In this document: positions 31,472-45,082 of the stretch, piece after piece
Layout: the number at the start of each line of letters is the position of its first letter
How positions within the stretch are numbered: the stretch's first letter is position 1
Made by a program: the position numbers and the translations under genes
Notes under the pieces: model-generated
What the model saw: the letters and a program-made list of their open reading frames with translations, nothing else
Database searches by the model: none
What the model was told of the DNA's origin: nothing
Virus record (IMG/VR): IMGVR_UViG_2718218100_000010
Length of the DNA: 51,912 bases
Direction: 5' to 3' (one strand)
From: a virus
Taxonomy: Duplodnaviria; Heunggongvirae; Uroviricota; Caudoviricetes

Positions 31472-31789
31472 AAGAAATGAAAAAAGGCCACGCAGTTGCG
31501 CAGCCTGATAAACCCTGGTTAAAATCCACACGATAACAACACAACAATATCAGTATCTCATGCTATTGCCCGAACCCATTCGGGCATTTTTTACCCATAA
31601 AAAAGCCCCTCCGGAGAGGGGCATGTTTGCATGCACATTCTTTTTCTTGCATGGTGCCGGGTGCCTCCCGGTGAATTCAGTATCAGCACCTGAATCCGCG
31701 ATTATCCCATATACCTGGTTGCTGATCGCCCCTCCGCACAGGGGGATTCACCATGCAGAAGTGTTTTTAATAAACAGCAAACAAAAAAA

Positions 31790-31957
31790 TCAAGCATTAT
31801 GCAGGCTGTTTCTTTTTATCACCGGCCACAGCAATACCACAATGCCGCAGACCAGCACCCCATCCGCCAGCACCGACATGATTCTGCTGGTGAAATCCAC
31901 CATCACCACCAGAAACAGCAGGAGTGCAGCCACAGCCAGGCGCAGTTTTACCGTCAC
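31790..31957 (-). CDS. Candidate 55-aa two-helix membrane protein, translationally coupled to the TerB-like gene
   Basis: GTG overlaps the TerB-like stop (GTGA) with GGAG upstream; hand translation VTVKLRLAVAALLLFLVVMVDFTSRIMSVLADGVLVCGIVVLLWPVIKRNSLHNA. Confidence 0.35.
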   Translation of the reverse strand: MTVKLRLAVAALLLFLVVMVDFTSRIMSVLADGVLVCGIVVLLWPVIKRNSLHNA

Positions 31958-32385
31958 AGGTGATTCTCCAGACGAAGACCCAGAACACCGGCAATCTCTT
32001 CCAGCACCTTGCGCTCTTCCGGCTCAATTTCGCCGTCTGCCTCCGCAATGGCCACCGCCACATCCAGCACATCTTCCGCTTCACGCGTATCGTGTTTCAC
32101 ATCCTCAATCTCGCGTAACGCGGCACGACGACCAATTTTAAAATTGGTATCCAGCTGACCGATAATAGTTGCGCTAATCGCATTAATTTCCGAGGTAAAC
32201 GCAGACAACGCAGGCTGATTACGTAAGACCTGTTCGATCTTCGCTTTCTCGGATGCCTCGCATTCACCATCTGCACAGGCCACCAGGTATGCAGCGTTAA
32301 TCACCGCCTGTGCCAGATCGCGTTTCTCAAACTTTTTAATTTCCGCTGCCGCTCTGCGGGTTTTCTTTTTGAAGATTCCAAACAT
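31954..32385 (-). CDS. TerB-like (tellurite-resistance TerB fold) protein, 143 aa
   Basis: Internal ATG of ORF 31954..32457 with AAGGAA RBS; acidic helical protein with ...AVINAAYLVACADGECEASEKAKIEQVL...AIAEADGEIEPEERKVLEEIAGVLGL pattern. Confidence 0.55.
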   Translation of the reverse strand: MFGIFKKKTRRAAAEIKKFEKRDLAQAVINAAYLVACADGECEASEKAKIEQVLRNQPALSAFTSEINAISATIIGQLDTNFKIGRRAALREIEDVKHDTREAEDVLDVAVAIAEADGEIEPEERKVLEEIAGVLGLRLENHL

Positions 32386-32512
32386 CGTGACGTTCCTTTG
32401 GGTGGGTGAGCCAACGCCCGGGAGCGATCTGCCCACAGAGAAAGTCACACTGACCACTCCGTAAGCTCACCCCCGAAAGGCTCTGTGGTTGATATGCGCC
32501 GGGCGTGGCGCG

Positions 32513-32540
32513 GATACAAAAAAGGCCGCCAATAGCGACC
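32513..32540 (-). terminator. Intrinsic terminator after the two-gene cassette
   Basis: Minus strand ggtcgc-tatt-ggcggcc (one G-U pair) followed by TTTTTTGTATC; homologous to 33110-33138. Confidence 0.5.
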
Positions 32541-32563
32541 TCAGTTACGGGATTATTCTGGGG

Positions 32564-32785
32564 TTAAACGACTGTTACTCCCCCCCAGACAAAATCATCA
32601 CTTCCTGTTCGATGCGAGCCATAGTGAACCTCGTACTTATCTCCCATCTTTCTTGCTTCCGTTTCTGCGTCTCCCTCTGTCGCAAAAACCCCAACAAGAT
32701 GCCAGGGCGAGCTTCTTACCACAGCCCAACCTTTAACCCATCCTTTGTTGTCCTTATCTTCCATTAACACTTCAGAAACAAACAT
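32564..32785 (-). CDS. Uncharacterised small protein, 73 aa (cassette gene 2)
   Basis: Strong RBS AAGGAGATAAAT-ATG; Trp-rich (GWVKGWAVV...PWHLVGVF...); no signal peptide. Confidence 0.5.
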   Translation of the reverse strand: MFVSEVLMEDKDNKGWVKGWAVVRSSPWHLVGVFATEGDAETEARKMGDKYEVHYGSHRTGSDDFVWGGVTVV

Positions 32786-32837
32786 ATTTATCTCCTTGTG
32801 GGTACCCGGAGATATTTTATGATTGCTCCCGGTCAGA

Positions 32838-33062
32838 TCAATAAAGTGGCTTCAATTTTGCCTTAATGATCAAATCAGGGTGATTGACGGAATCGTACAC
32901 CACCTCAATATTTTCATCCGTGGCGTCGATAAGATATTCTTTTACATAAGGACCTGTTGATTTTCCATGAAATACATCTTCAACAAGTACACTCTCCCCC
33001 TGAACAACACGAAAACTAACTTCTGTTTCGAACGGACCAATCGTCACCATCAGTTTTTTCAC
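32838..33062 (-). CDS. Uncharacterised small protein, 74 aa (cassette gene 1)
   Basis: GTG start preceded by AGGAGG; MKKLMVTIGPFETEVSFRVVQGESVLVEDVFHGKSTGPYVKEYLIDATDENIEVVYDSVNHPDLIIKAKLKPLY; no signal peptide. Confidence 0.5.
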   Translation of the reverse strand: MKKLMVTIGPFETEVSFRVVQGESVLVEDVFHGKSTGPYVKEYLIDATDENIEVVYDSVNHPDLIIKAKLKPLY

Positions 33063-33109
33063 ATAGCCTCCTGATAAGCACTCGATTTATTAGTTAATGG
33101 TGTAACGCA

Positions 33110-33138
33110 GATACAAAAAAGGCCCGCAAAAGCGAGCC
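33110..33138 (-). terminator. Intrinsic terminator after the tRNA cluster
   Basis: Minus strand ggctcgc-tttt-gcgggcc followed by TTTTTTGTATC. Confidence 0.55.
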
Positions 33139-33151
33139 AGGTAAATAAATA

Positions 33152-33228
33152 TGGCGCGTTGTACTGGATTCGAACCAGTGACCGATTGCTTAGAAGGCAA
33201 TTGCTCTGTCCGGCTGAGCTAACAACGC
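33152..33228 (-). tRNA. tRNA-Arg (anticodon UCU), 77 nt
   Basis: Cloverleaf folded by hand: acceptor GCGTTGT/ACAACGC, D-arm GCTC..GAGC, anticodon stem ATTGC/GCAAT with loop CTTCTAA, T-loop TTCGAAT, 3' GCCA. Confidence 0.85.
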
Positions 33229-33241
33229 AGGGTACGGATAA

Positions 33242-33318
33242 TGGACCGCCATCGAGGACTCGAACCCCGCGCAACCAGCTTCGAAGGCTGGCGCTCTATC
33301 CCGATGAGCTAATGGCGG
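33242..33318 (-). tRNA. tRNA-Arg (anticodon UCG), 77 nt
   Basis: Cloverleaf folded by hand: acceptor CCGCCAT/ATGGCGG, anticodon stem CCAGC/GCTGG with loop CTTCGAA, T-loop TTCGAGT, 3' TCCA. Confidence 0.8.
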
Positions 33319-33325
33319 TATGTGA

Positions 33326-33401
33326 TGGTGGCCCTTGCTGGATTTGAACCAGCGACCTGGCGATTATGAGTCGCTCGCTCTCACCACTGAGCTAAAGGGC
33401 C
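33326..33401 (-). tRNA. tRNA with CAU anticodon (Met, or Ile2 if lysidine-modified), 76 nt
   Basis: Acceptor GGCCCTT/AAGGGCC, anticodon loop CTCATAA, T-loop TTCAAAT, 3' ACCA; first tRNA after Q as in many lambdoid prophages. Confidence 0.8.
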
Positions 33402-33435: not shown

Positions 33436-33465
33436 GCAATAAAAAACCCGCTCAATGGCGGGTTC
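33436..33465 (-). terminator. Candidate tR' late terminator (Q target) downstream of Q
   Basis: Minus strand cccgccattgagcggg followed by TTTTTT, between Q and the tRNA genes. Confidence 0.5.
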
Positions 33466-33547
33466 TGGTAAAGTTCATGCGCTTGGTTCGCCTCGCGATA
33501 CAGCTTTGCGAAGCATACCGGAATTGAAGCAGTTTATGCGTAAAAAA

Positions 33548-34090
33548 TCAAGCTATTTTTTGAGCAAATGATTCTCGCATGGGAATATATAGGGCATACT
33601 CAGCAACAGCCAACCAATTAGCAATTCGCTTTTCGCATGTGCTAAAACACCACTCAGGATGTGCATCATTTAGCAATTCAGCCATTTTGCGCTTAGTCAT
33701 CCCCCGACCTTCATACCGTTGCTGGAGGACACTAATCAATCCCGGATGTTCTGCCAGCACCTCACTTATAACCCGATCAACACATAACGCCTCTGCATCA
33801 GTACAATGCGCCAGCCAGCTCTTTTGCTTACCATTGATCATCTCTCGCAAAAACGCTTCCAGCTCAGGTTTCTCTATTCCCGCTTTTTTCATCCTCCGGA
33901 GCGCCTCGTTAATTGCCGTTTTTGTCAGCTTTTTAGAGGTCAGTAATTGGTTGAACATATTTCCCGTCTTACCGCCGCCAATATACGACCAACGCCCCCA
34001 CATACGCAGTTTCCCCTGGAGCCAGACACTTTCCAGCGTGGTGAGACGAAGGTGTTCCCCGCTTTTTCCTGTATTCGTTGGGTAAATCAT
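33548..34090 (-). CDS. Putative late-gene antiterminator Q, 180 aa
   Basis: Internal ATG (MIYPTNTGK...) with GGAGAAAGGAGGG RBS, overlapping the upstream stop (ATGA); last gene before tR'/tRNAs/late genes; assignment by position, not strong motif. Confidence 0.55.
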   Translation of the reverse strand: MIYPTNTGKSGEHLRLTTLESVWLQGKLRMWGRWSYIGGGKTGNMFNQLLTSKKLTKTAINEALRRMKKAGIEKPELEAFLREMINGKQKSWLAHCTDAEALCVDRVISEVLAEHPGLISVLQQRYEGRGMTKRKMAELLNDAHPEWCFSTCEKRIANWLAVAEYALYIPMRESFAQKIA

Positions 34091-36303: not shown

Positions 36304-36459
36304 TTACTCCTCAGATTCGTAAGCTGTGAAGACAGCGACCTCCGTCTGGCCGGTTCGGATTCGTACCTCGCAGAGGTCTTTCCTCGTTACCAGTGCCGTC
36401 ACTATGACGGTTAAACAGATGACGATCAGGGCGATTAACATCGCCTTTTGCTGCTTCAT
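36304..36459 (-). CDS. hokD: Hok/Gef-family type I toxin, 51 aa (HokD/RelF-like)
   Basis: MKQQKAMLIALIVICLTVIVTALVTRKDLCEVRIRTGQTEVAVFTAYESEE; AAGGAG RBS; the track ORF 36304..36516 includes the upstream mok-like extension. Confidence 0.8.
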   Translation of the reverse strand: MKQQKAMLIALIVICLTVIVTALVTRKDLCEVRIRTGQTEVAVFTAYESEE

Positions 36460-36704
36460 AGCCTGCTTCTCCTTGCCTTTCGGCGCGTAAGAGGCTAACC
36501 TACATGTGCAAGTCATAGATATGGCCTCAGATTAATGTTAAGCGTCTTGCCGGACGCGTAATGTTAACTGGGGCTTTTCTCTATCTGCCGTTGGTGTTCA
36601 TGCCCGAGGCAGATAGCCTCAAGCACCCGCAGCAATTCTACTTAACTCTCGCTTTACCGCAAACCGTTTTTACCCGATATGGGAATTCCCATATCGTAAT
36701 GAAT

Positions 36705-44360: not shown

Positions 44361-45082
44361 ACCATTTATTGGATTAATTCAATATTCTTGCTGTAGGGGT
44401 ATAGCCGAGGCCACCAAAGCCCGGAGGTGGTGAAATAAAACCGGGCACAACACGAAGGCGCATTTCCGGTATCCATAAAGAGTCGGTCTTGTCTGTCAAA
44501 TTTAAATGGTGGGAGTGCGCCTCCGGTTGTGAATAACAACACTGCTGTGTGTAGTCTTGGCGGCATCAGTTTTTTCTTGAAGTTCGACTGATGTCCGCCC
44601 TTTTTAAAGTGAATTTTGTGATGCGGTGAATGCGGCTAAGCGCACGCGGAACAGTTAAAAAGCTATTGTCCTTCGTAGCAGAGTTATGGGTGAAATATCC
44701 GGCGTTAATTGTTAACTGGTTAACGTCACCTGGAGGCACCAGGCACCGCATCAACAAAGTTCACTTCAGTGATGAAAGGTGAGAGAAAATGTTGAATGTA
44801 GCTATTGAAAACCAGAACGGGTGGAATTATAGTGCACCTGCACCTCATAAAACGGGTGCCGGGATTTGCACCCCGATGATCACTAGAGCGCATAACCGCG
44901 CCAAAGCGGTTTTTTTATGCGTAAAGCGCAGCCACATTCAGATTATGGTGGGGCGTATGGGGCCGTTTTCGGGCGGGCCGGATTCTCTAGTGACCGGTAG
45001 TGCAAACCCTGTACGTCTCACCACCCATGAGATTTGCACCTCCGGTGGTGAGTTTACCAACTTATCACTAGAGGCTGCCATC
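44361..45082 (+). other. Structured non-coding leader upstream of the rha-like gene
   Basis: No convincing ORF; hairpin gcccgg..ccgggc at ~44419-44446; GTTAACTGGTTAAC at 44711-44724; intrinsic terminator aaccgc-gccaaa-gcggtt+T7 at ~44894-44918; direct repeats gatttgcacc...atcactagag. Confidence 0.4.

What the first reader, a model, noticed from the sequence alone, without database searches (positions are those of the whole stretch)
32513..33138. Two-gene small-protein cassette in the slot where Stx phages carry stxAB, bracketed by duplicated terminators
Directly downstream of Q, tR' and three tRNAs sit two tightly spaced ORFs of 74 and 73 aa, each with a near-perfect Shine-Dalgarno sequence (AGGAGG and AAGGAG), no signal peptides, and no family I can recognise. 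The cassette is bracketed by two homologous intrinsic terminators (33110-33138 and 32513-32540, both ...GATACAAAAAAGGCC...), the signature of a moron inserted by duplication at a terminator. Moron slots at this position usually carry toxins, immunity or defence functions, so this is a candidate uncharacterised two-component module.
Basis: partly seen in the sequence, partly recalled or inferred. Interest (0 to 1): 0.65.

Follow-up and report, generated by a model that had tools for sequence, protein, structure and literature searches.

The report
Two-gene moron in the stx slot
A 597-bp insert carrying two small, conserved genes of unknown function sits in an E. coli O157:H7 prophage at the exact junction where related phages carry the Shiga toxin genes; it is a real but ordinary kind of phage accessory cassette, and the second gene has an unusually well-conserved translation-control hairpin.

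Summary
On the minus strand the order is a Q-position gene, a tR'-like terminator, three tRNAs, terminator T1, ORF1 (74 aa), ORF2 (73 aa), terminator T2, then TerB.

T1 and T2 are homologous. Phage Evi and 786 of 5,426 complete E. coli genomes have the empty site, with T1 joined directly to TerB. About 92 genomes carry the insert intact. Stx2 phages start stx2A at the same junction. GC drops to about 0.40-0.44 inside the insert.

Both genes are under purifying selection (dN/dS about 0.05-0.3). Both belong only to PHROG families of unknown function. Neither has a Pfam, NCBIfam, PADLOC or PDB relative.

ORF1 models as a generic six-strand beta-sandwich. ORF2 models as a small alpha/beta protein with no structural match, and that model is not robust.

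In Enterobacterales, ORF2 homologues nearly always follow an ORF1 homologue, usually just after Rz. ORF1 also occurs alone, and ORF2 occurs alone outside Enterobacterales, so this is not an obligate two-component module.

A conserved hairpin sequesters ORF2's Shine-Dalgarno sequence and start codon. An invariant TAnnnT hexamer lies just upstream of it. This suggests ORF2 has its own promoter and is insulated from read-through translation.

Verdict: a new member of a known kind. Function remains unknown.

The parts
33548..34090 (-). Gene in the Q (late antiterminator) position; a DUF1133 family protein
   Evidence: Pfam DUF1133 at E=1.5e-107, with a weak Phage_antitermQ match. RefSeq annotation.
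33436..33466 (-). tR'-like intrinsic terminator between the Q-position gene and the tRNAs
   Evidence: Hairpin GAACCCGC/GCGGGUUC followed by a U-run; -13.1 kcal/mol, z = -2.5.
33152..33401 (-). Three tRNA genes of the ileZ-argN-argO type: CAT, TCG and TCT anticodons
   Evidence: ARAGORN, Rfam tRNA, RefSeq annotation. They are 95-97% identical to the tRNA block of Stx2 phages.
33110..33138 (-). Terminator T1, the resident terminator that ends the tRNA block. It is the shared left junction for this insert, for stx2AB in Stx2 phages and for TerB in phage Evi.
   Evidence: -14.8 kcal/mol, z = -3.5. Homology to Stx2a_WGPS8 and to Evi ends at 33106.
32509..33105 (-). The 597-bp insert itself: ORF1, ORF2 and its own terminator T2
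   Evidence: Boundaries come from comparison with Evi (empty site), with L056 (different downstream context; homology ends at 32512) and with Stx2 phage. GC is 0.40-0.44 inside against 0.50-0.55 in the flanks.
32838..33062 (-). ORF1, 74 aa, GTG start, AGGAGG Shine-Dalgarno at 33072-33067. PHROG 2571 family; predicted six-strand beta-sandwich.
32836..32841 (-). -35-like hexamer TTGATC; overlaps the ORF1 stop codon
   Evidence: Promoter scan, 9 of 12 matches with a 16-nt spacer. TTGnnn at a 16-18 nt spacer also occurs in other subfamilies.
32814..32819 (-). -10-like hexamer TAAAAT. Positions 1, 2 and 6 (T, A, T) are invariant in 32 distinct homologous intergenic regions.
32783..32821 (-). Conserved hairpin that sequesters ORF2's ribosome-binding site. 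The outer stem CAUA/UAUG includes the start codon; the inner stem UAUCUCC/GGAGAUA includes the Shine-Dalgarno sequence. The loop carries the palindrome GGGUACCC (32807-32800).
   Evidence: -11.4 kcal/mol, z = -2.9; RNA starting at about 32808 is unstructured. All 35 distinct homologous sequences fold the same way. 81% of cells paired against 41-59% in slid controls, and compensatory changes keep the palindrome.
32564..32785 (-). ORF2, 73 aa. PHROG 4280 family; conserved SPWHL...YGSHRxGSDDF motif; small alpha/beta model.
   Evidence: Model pLDDT 84 in only one of five models. No structural match. dN/dS 0.05-0.14 at moderate divergence.
32512..32542 (-). Terminator T2, carried by the insert. Its 3' half (GGCCTTTTTTGTATCCGCG) duplicates that of T1.
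   Evidence: A terminator follows ORF2 in essentially every subfamily.
31790..32385 (-). TerB-family and DUF3927 genes: resident cargo of the same slot, adjacent to T1 when the site is empty
   Evidence: Pfam; RefSeq; Evi.
31531..31785 (.). Convergent sRNA pair: AgvB (31531-31592, plus strand) and STnc100 (31593-31785, minus strand). It marks the distal end of the known PR' moron insertion site.
   Evidence: Rfam gathering-threshold hits. The architecture is described in PMC4104026.

Best explanation
The feature is a 597-bp accessory ('moron'-type) cassette. It was recombined into the late-operon cargo slot of a lambdoid prophage at a shared terminator sequence. That slot lies downstream of the Q-position gene, tR' and the ileZ-argN-argO tRNAs, and it is the same junction where Stx2 phages carry stx2AB.

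The cassette encodes two small, soluble, mildly acidic cytoplasmic proteins of unknown biochemical function. Both are maintained by purifying selection.

Shown: the insertion, its boundaries, the duplicated terminator, the conservation of the gene pair, and the selection signal.

Inferred, expression of the two genes:
- ORF1 has no promoter of its own. It would be expressed only when Q-modified RNA polymerase reads through tR' and T1, that is, late in lytic growth, as for stx2.
- ORF2 appears to be the true self-contained unit. A conserved -10-like TAnnnT hexamer sits so that transcription would start just 3' of the anti-Shine-Dalgarno arm, and the gene is followed by its own terminator.
- On read-through transcripts that include the 5' arm, ORF2's Shine-Dalgarno sequence and AUG are locked in a conserved hairpin. 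This resembles IS10-type fold-back inhibition (recalled from memory).
- The result would be that ORF2 is made mainly from its own promoter, probably in the lysogen, and not from late transcripts.

The most likely role is a host- or phage-interaction accessory function. It is not a secreted toxin.
For: Anatomy.

Empty site and frequency: phage Evi and 786 of 5,426 genomes are empty; 92 carry the insert intact and 109 carry at least part of it.

Same junction as stx2A.

GC dip.

Known PR' moron site, bounded by the AgvB/STnc100 pair.

Moron definition.

Purifying selection on both genes.

Gene-pair linkage:
- 77 of 78 informative viral loci and 9 of 10 enterobacterial genome loci have an ORF1 homologue 39-75 nt upstream of the ORF2 homologue (one of the nine is a weak partial hit).
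- This amounts to 50 distinct pairs, some with ORF1 only 36-45% identical.
- Most sit in a different slot, just after Rz.

Hairpin:
-.
- The TAnnnT hexamer is invariant in 32 distinct sequences. A12 and T16 are invariant even though their pairing partner varies or they are unpaired.
- TTGnnn -35-like hexamers at 16-18 nt spacing occur in several subfamilies.
- The hairpin and TAGCAT are retained in L083 and L010, where ORF1 is absent.
- A terminator follows ORF2 in all subfamilies.
Against: - No expression data exist. The promoter is a 9-of-12 consensus match, and the scan found 5 such sites against 3.3 expected by chance.
- The mEp237-type subfamily lacks a recognisable -35.
- T11 of the hexamer is also explained by pairing with the A of the AUG.
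- Covariation in the stems is modest: 5 pairs with double changes, and RNAalifold on the MAFFT alignment returned no consensus structure.
- If ORF2 were fully autonomous, its near-universal linkage to ORF1 in Enterobacterales would need another explanation, such as shared ancestry or a functional partnership.
- No function is demonstrated for either protein.
Confidence: 0.5

Rival explanations
1. ORF1 and ORF2 form an obligate two-protein module, such as a toxin-antitoxin, toxin-immunity or stoichiometric complex. The hairpin would couple ORF2 translation to ORF1 translation, with ribosomes terminating at ORF1 melting the structure.
For: - Two adjacent co-directional small genes that are linked in 50 distinct enterobacterial pairs across two genomic slots.
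- A hairpin over the second gene's ribosome-binding site is the classic device for translational coupling.
- In the L116-type subfamily the ORF1 stop codon lies only 3 nt from the outer stem.
Against: - ORF1-family genes are stable on their own after Rz in a large Stx-like lineage, with no ORF2 remnant.
- ORF2-family genes stand alone in 17 of 17 non-enterobacterial loci, including one next to groEL, and in L083 and L010.
- The distance from the ORF1 stop to the ORF2 start varies from 39 to 75 nt. A terminating ribosome therefore cannot reach the stem in most subfamilies, whereas the spacing between hexamer and hairpin is constant.
- No hit to any toxin-antitoxin or defence model.
Confidence: 0.17
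2. Both genes are late-expressed phage-benefit genes, for example counter-defence, lysis-timing or morphogenesis accessories. Both would be transcribed only from PR' under Q antitermination. The conserved hairpin and palindrome would be an operator for a translational repressor, in the manner of MS2 coat protein (recalled from memory), rather than part of a promoter arrangement.
For: - The family's usual position is inside the late operon, directly after Rz. In Stx-like phages the ORF1-like start overlaps the Rz stop as ATGA.
- Orientation is always co-directional with late transcription.
- The loop palindrome GGGUACCC keeps its self-complementarity through compensatory changes to GGUUAACC and GAGUAUUC. 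This points to a specific ligand or to an RNA-RNA contact.
Against: - The invariant TAnnnT hexamer with variable positions 3-5 fits a sigma-70 -10 element better than an RNA operator does.
- Every subfamily has a terminator directly after ORF2, which is typical of autonomous morons.
- No similarity to any known anti-defence or lysis protein.
Confidence: 0.2
3. The ORFs are non-functional filler: chance ORFs or decaying remnants in a cryptic prophage.
For: - 17 of 109 genomes carry copies disrupted by IS3/IS600 or truncated.
- The C-terminal tail of ORF2 varies between 69, 73 and 76 aa at a G7 run.
- Within the near-identical window-type lineage, ORF2 dN/dS is 0.4-0.9, based on very few substitutions.
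Against: - dN/dS is 0.05-0.3 over moderately diverged pairs for both genes.
- Homologues occur from E. coli to Xenorhabdus, and for ORF2 also in Pseudomonas, Ralstonia and alphaproteobacteria.
- The ORF1 model is confident, at pLDDT 91.
- Both genes have strong Shine-Dalgarno sequences.
Confidence: 0.03

Closest known systems
Morons at the PR' (Q-to-S) insertion site of lambdoid/Stx prophages, e.g. stx2AB in Sp5/933W-type phages (Juhala et al. 2000 as cited in PMC4104026; Cumby et al. 2012, PMC3594210)
   Same: - Same slot and the same nucleotide junction after the tRNA-block terminator.
- Present or absent between otherwise homologous phages.
- Deviant GC content.
- Carries its own terminator.
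- Lies upstream of the convergent AgvB/STnc100-type sRNA pair and the nanS-p esterase gene.
   Different: - The cargo is two cytoplasmic proteins of about 8 kDa with no known function, not an AB5 toxin.
- No promoter precedes the first gene.
- The cassette co-resides with the TerB-DUF3927 cargo rather than replacing it.
PHROG 2571 and PHROG 4280 (phage protein families of unknown function)
   Same: ORF1 matches phrog_2571 (E=1.9e-26) and ORF2 matches phrog_4280 (E=2.2e-40, full length).
   Different: ORF1 covers only positions 100-171 of the 291-position phrog_2571 profile. Some members, such as YDC107_5380 (198 aa), P0070 and P0075, carry extra helical extensions.
Post-Rz hypothetical gene of Stx1a/Stx2a/Stx2c phages and H-19B, and the gene pair mEp237_060/061
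   Same: - Homologous proteins: ORF1 is 39-41% identical and ORF2 is 65% identical.
- In mEp237 the gene order, spacing, hairpin and downstream terminator are the same.
   Different: - They sit at the end of the lysis cassette, not at the Q-tRNA junction.
- The Stx-phage version has ORF1 only, and its start overlaps the Rz stop.
IS10 fold-back inhibition of transposase translation (from memory: Davis, Simons and Kleckner 1985)
   Same: The logic is the same. Transcripts that enter from outside contain a 5' segment that pairs with the ribosome-binding site. The gene's own transcript starts downstream of that segment and can be translated.
   Different: This is purely an in-silico inference here. 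The element is a phage moron, not an insertion sequence, and the loop contains a conserved 8-nt palindrome that the IS10 model does not explain.

Membership tests
Moron (Hendrix/Juhala definition, as summarised in PMC3594210) | Extra DNA lying between genes that are adjacent in related phages | tested here: met
   T1 is contiguous with the TerB leader in phage Evi and in 786 E. coli genomes. The insert is exactly 597 bp.
Moron (Hendrix/Juhala definition, as summarised in PMC3594210) | [quoted passage not shown] | tested here: met
   0.40-0.44 inside the insert against 0.50-0.55 in the flanks.
Moron (Hendrix/Juhala definition, as summarised in PMC3594210) | Own factor-independent terminator | tested here: met
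   T2 at 32542-32512. A terminator follows ORF2 in all subfamilies. This is an in-silico result only.
Moron (Hendrix/Juhala definition, as summarised in PMC3594210) | Own promoter that allows expression from the repressed prophage | tested here: inconclusive
   No promoter-like site lies between T1 and ORF1. A conserved -10-like TAnnnT hexamer, with TTGnnn at 16-18 nt in several subfamilies, precedes ORF2. No expression data.
[quoted passage not shown] 2014, PMC4104026) | Downstream of Q/PR', with a convergent sRNA pair between the moron coding sequence and a conserved phage ORF | tested here: met
   The Q-position gene, tR' and tRNAs lie upstream. AgvB (plus strand) and STnc100 (minus strand) at 31531-31785 lie between DUF3927 and the SASA/nanS-p esterase gene.
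[quoted passage not shown] 2014, PMC4104026) | Same junction as stx2AB | tested here: met
   Stx2a_WGPS8 homology ends at window 33106. stx2A begins 46 nt after the same ...TATCTGCG sequence.
Type II toxin-antitoxin pair | Strict co-occurrence of the two genes | tested here: not met
   ORF1 stands alone in 59 of 79 ORF1-seeded loci. ORF2 stands alone in 17 of 17 non-enterobacterial loci and in L083 and L010.
Type II toxin-antitoxin pair | Homology to a known toxin or antitoxin family | tested here: not met
   No Pfam, NCBIfam, PADLOC or PDB hit.
Type II toxin-antitoxin pair | Toxicity of one partner that is neutralised by the other | not testable with these tools
   Requires expression experiments.
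Known anti-phage defence systems (PADLOC-DB v2) | Match to a model of a defence-system component | tested here: not met
   ORF1 has no match. ORF2 has only a chance-level Cas7c match at E=0.036.
PHROG 2571 / PHROG 4280 | Significant profile match | tested here: met
   E=1.9e-26 and E=2.2e-40. Both families are annotated 'unknown function'.
Fold-back inhibition (IS10-like) of read-through translation | A 5' segment pairs with the Shine-Dalgarno sequence and AUG on long transcripts | tested here: met
   The minimum-free-energy hairpin covers the Shine-Dalgarno sequence and/or the AUG in 35 of 35 distinct sequences. In the window it is -11.4 kcal/mol with z = -2.9.
Fold-back inhibition (IS10-like) of read-through translation | The gene's own transcript starts 3' of the inhibitory segment | tested here: inconclusive
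   The predicted -10 ends 6-7 nt before the loop in all subfamilies. RNA starting at about 32808 is unstructured. No transcription start site data.

The most novel reading that the evidence does not exclude
ORF1 and ORF2 are an uncharacterised two-protein phage-conflict module, either exclusion/defence or counter-defence. Its second gene would be governed by an RNA switch: a hairpin that masks the ribosome-binding site, with a conserved self-complementary loop (GGGUACCC, GGUUAACC or GAGUAUUC) that serves as an operator for one of the two proteins or as a kissing-loop contact. ORF2 production would then be restricted to one phase of the phage life cycle.
Probability: 0.15. Interest if true: 0.6.

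Novelty: new member of a known kind. Interest (0 to 1): 0.35.

Why it matters
The cassette shows at nucleotide resolution that the Shiga-toxin slot is a general cargo junction. That junction is defined by a reused terminator sequence, and different cargoes (stx2AB, TerB-DUF3927, and this pair) are swapped in behind the same tRNA block.

The two proteins belong to families that recur in EHEC, EPEC and other enterobacterial prophages. ORF2 relatives extend across Proteobacteria. Neither family has any assigned function, so a phenotype would annotate hundreds of prophage genes at once.

The conserved hairpin and promoter geometry is a concrete, cheaply testable example of how a moron might be insulated from read-through translation in the late operon.

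None of this changes current understanding of phage biology. It is a well-delimited candidate, not a surprise.

Tried and rejected
Searches that returned nothing useful:
- Pfam, NCBIfam and PADLOC scans of both proteins and of distant homologues. The only signal was a weak DUF7336 match in 4 of 12 ORF2 relatives, best E=0.0022 and below threshold.
- PDB sequence and profile searches.
- Foldseek of the ORF2 model against BFVD, no match at E of 0.001 or better.
- The afdb50 library was not available.
- The exhaustive HMMER search with ORF1 found only 11 representatives. Its two multi-domain hits (P0072, P0073) look spurious.
- Literature searches by accession, locus tag, PHROG number and DUF7336 found no paper.

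Analyses that failed or were not significant:
I replaced it with per-sequence folding and pair counting on a structure I specified.
- I tested whether the convergent neighbour of ORF2 homologues in a Pseudomonas phage, Azotobacter and Pseudomonas saxonica is a remote ORF1 relative. hhalign gave probability 3.7% and P=0.011, which is not significant.

Hypotheses rejected:
- A toxin-antitoxin reading, because each gene occurs alone.
- Single-gene variants of the cassette in E. coli. They turned out to be IS3/IS600 disruptions.

Full report
**What is there**

The window is a lambdoid prophage that is 100% identical to ones in E. coli O157:H7 strains 2571 and F6321 and two other strains. All relevant features are on the minus strand. 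In order they are:
- a DUF1133 protein in the Q position (34090-33548);
- a tR'-like terminator (about 33466-33436);
- three tRNAs of the ileZ-argN-argO type (33401-33152);
- terminator T1 (33138-33110);
- ORF1 (33062-32838; GTG start; 74 aa; Shine-Dalgarno AGGAGG);
- ORF2 (32785-32564; 73 aa; Shine-Dalgarno AAGGAG);
- terminator T2 (32542-32512);
- TerB and DUF3927 genes;
- a convergent sRNA pair, AgvB and STnc100 (31531-31785);
- the SASA/nanS-p esterase gene, followed by the lysis genes.

T1 and T2 share a 37-nt direct repeat at 81% identity, 597 nt apart.

**It is an insertion, at the stx junction**

- Phage Evi has the same tRNA block and T1 followed directly by ...GTATCTGCG|CCACGCCCGGCGCATATC... 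and TerB. In the window, that right-hand sequence follows T2 instead.
- BLAST places the homology breaks at 33106 and 32538/32509, so the insert is window 33105-32509, or 597 bp.
- L056 shares the cassette but diverges immediately after T2 (32512). L057 and L059 share it behind different tRNAs. T2 therefore travels with the cassette.
- Stx2a_WGPS8 is 97% identical up to 33106. After the same ...TATCTGCG it continues into stx2A.
- Among 5,426 complete E. coli genomes, 786 contain the empty junction at 80% coverage or better. 92 contain the cassette nearly complete and 109 contain at least part of it.
- The partial copies that I checked are IS3/IS600 disruptions.
- GC falls to 0.40-0.44 in the cassette, against 0.50-0.55 around it.
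- The layout matches the published 'moron insertion site at PR'', in which the cargo lies between PR' and a convergent sRNA pair (PMC4104026). It also meets most of the moron definition (PMC3594210).

**The genes are real, but anonymous**

- Both match only PHROG families of unknown function: phrog_2571 (E=1.9e-26) and phrog_4280 (E=2.2e-40).
- Pfam, NCBIfam, PADLOC and PDB sequence and profile searches gave nothing.
- ORF1 relatives are confined to Enterobacteriaceae prophages.
- ORF2 relatives reach Xenorhabdus, Yersinia, Pseudomonas and its phages, Azotobacter, Ralstonia, Bordetella and alphaproteobacteria. One alphaproteobacterial copy lies beside groEL.
- Nei-Gojobori dN/dS over 49 distinct gene pairs is 0.15-0.29 for ORF1 and 0.05-0.14 for ORF2 at dS above 0.05. 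Only within the nearly identical window-type lineage is ORF2's ratio higher (0.4-0.9), and that rests on a handful of substitutions.
- ORF2's beta-beta-alpha-beta-beta model reached pLDDT 84 in only one of five models. It matches nothing, so I treat it as uncertain.
- Both proteins are soluble, have pI of about 5, and lack a signal peptide or transmembrane segment.

**Is it a two-component module?**

I seeded searches with ORF2 and then scanned the flanks with a profile of the ORF1 family.
- 77 of 78 informative viral loci have an ORF1 homologue on the same strand, 39-75 nt upstream.
- So do 9 of 10 enterobacterial genome loci, one of them only as a weak partial hit.
- This gives 50 distinct pairs, with ORF1 as low as 36-45% identical and ORF2 55-70% identical to the window proteins.
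- Most of these pairs sit in a different slot, directly after Rz/Rz1 and before the terminase genes, as in mEp237_060/061.

The pair is therefore an old, mobile unit. The linkage is not obligate, however.
- ORF1-seeded loci show ORF1 alone in 59 of 79 cases. These are mostly one Stx-like lineage, in which the ORF1-like start overlaps the Rz stop.
- ORF1 also occurs fused to extra helical segments.
- ORF2 lacks any detectable ORF1 partner in 17 of 17 non-enterobacterial loci, and in L083 and L010.
- These facts, plus the absence of any toxin-antitoxin or defence homology, argue against a toxin-antitoxin or toxin-immunity reading.

**A conserved control element upstream of ORF2 (new here)**

- The 25 nt before ORF2's ATG are far better conserved than the proteins would predict: aTCTCCGGGTACCCAaAGGAGAtaa-ATG, from E. 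coli to Xenorhabdus.
- All 35 distinct sequences fold into a two-tier hairpin. The inner stem pairs UCUCC with the Shine-Dalgarno GGAGA. In most of them the outer stem pairs CAU(A/G) with the AUG.
- In the window the hairpin spans 32821-32783, at -11.4 kcal/mol with z = -2.9.
- On a 32-sequence alignment, 81% of cells pair in my specified structure against 41-59% when the partner is slid. Five pairs show double changes.
- Sequences without ORF1 keep a hairpin through different base pairs: UCCUC/GAGGA in L010 and CCUUUG/CAAAGG in L083.
- The loop holds an 8-nt palindrome, GGGUACCC. It becomes GGUUAACC in one subfamily and GAGUAUUC in L012, and self-complementarity is preserved each time. I cannot explain the palindrome. 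A dimeric protein operator and a loop-loop RNA contact are both possible.
- Immediately 5' lies a hexamer in which positions 1, 2 and 6 are invariant (T, A, T) and positions 3-5 vary: TAAAAT, TAGCAT, TAGAAT, TAACAT, TAATCT. This is the signature of a sigma-70 -10 element.
- A TTGnnn hexamer at 16-18 nt spacing occurs in several subfamilies. In the window it is TTGATC, overlapping ORF1's stop codon.
- The hexamer ends 6-7 nt before the loop. A transcript from it would start at about 32808-32806, lack the anti-Shine-Dalgarno arm, and be unstructured.
- The distance from the ORF1 stop to the hairpin varies (gap of 39-75 nt), while the hexamer-to-hairpin geometry is fixed. I therefore favour a fold-back-inhibition arrangement over ribosome-mediated coupling. 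In that arrangement ORF2 is translatable from its own transcript and masked on read-through transcripts.
- This step is inference only.

**Verdict**

- The 'moron in the stx slot' reading is supported.
- The 'two-component toxin/immunity/defence module' reading is not supported and remains untested.
- I classify the feature as a new member of a known kind: an accessory cassette at the PR' moron site. It carries two conserved proteins of unknown function and a noteworthy, testable translational-control hairpin.
- Interest is moderate to low.

Noticed in passing
window 31531-31785: A convergent sRNA pair. AgvB (anti-GcvB, plus strand, 96.5 bits) abuts STnc100 (minus strand, 145.8 bits) between the DUF3927 gene and the nanS-p-like esterase gene. 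This is the arrangement described for EHEC prophages by Tree et al. 2014.
   Followed up: partly
window 26479-26499: The usual home of the ORF1 family, directly after Rz, is empty in this prophage. About 20 nt here replace a 274-nt segment of phage Stx2_EH1846 (L002 2967-3241) that holds the ORF1-like gene. The flanks are 92-99% identical.
   Followed up: partly
window 32580-32586: A run of 7 G near the 3' end of ORF2. Near-identical copies in other genomes have ORF2 lengths of 69, 73 or 76 aa that differ only after the conserved ...DDFVW. This suggests slippage changes the C-terminal tail.
   Followed up: partly
window 32800-32807: The 8-nt palindrome GGGTACCC in the loop of the ORF2 leader hairpin. 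It is conserved across genera and is replaced by other self-complementary octamers (GGTTAACC, GAGTATTC). Its purpose is unexplained.
   Followed up: partly
window 31480-31489, 32518-32527, 33115-33124: The terminator core AAAAAAGGCC (plus-strand reading) recurs at three module boundaries in the late region. This is consistent with terminators acting as recombination junctions between cargo modules.
   Followed up: no
L004 3188-3454, L019 4201-4479, L025 4197-4463: In a Pseudomonas phage, Azotobacter and Pseudomonas saxonica, the ORF2 homologue has a conserved convergent neighbour of about 90 aa. It carries a motif (F.G+...GY.+.Y) reminiscent of ORF1. The hhalign comparison was not significant (P=0.011, probability 3.7%).
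   Followed up: yes
window 50178-50356, 36454-36628, 44840-45028: Other regulatory RNAs in the prophage: RalA (antitoxin of RalR), sok (next to hokD), and the isrK / C4 antisense RNA pair.
   Followed up: no
L032 about 2074-4168: An ORF2-family gene lies just downstream of groEL in a Caulobacteraceae metagenome-assembled genome. The family is therefore not restricted to phage contexts.
   Followed up: no
L194, L195, L196 (E. coli O145 RM8988-C1, strain 7_26_9A, strain 2013C-3492): IS3-family and IS600 elements have inserted into or next to the cassette in several genomes. They remove ORF1 or truncate ORF2.
   Followed up: yes
window 33548-34090: The gene in the Q position is a DUF1133 protein. 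Its match to the Pfam Q antiterminator model is below threshold (25.7 bits against a cutoff of 26). RefSeq does not call it Q.
   Followed up: no
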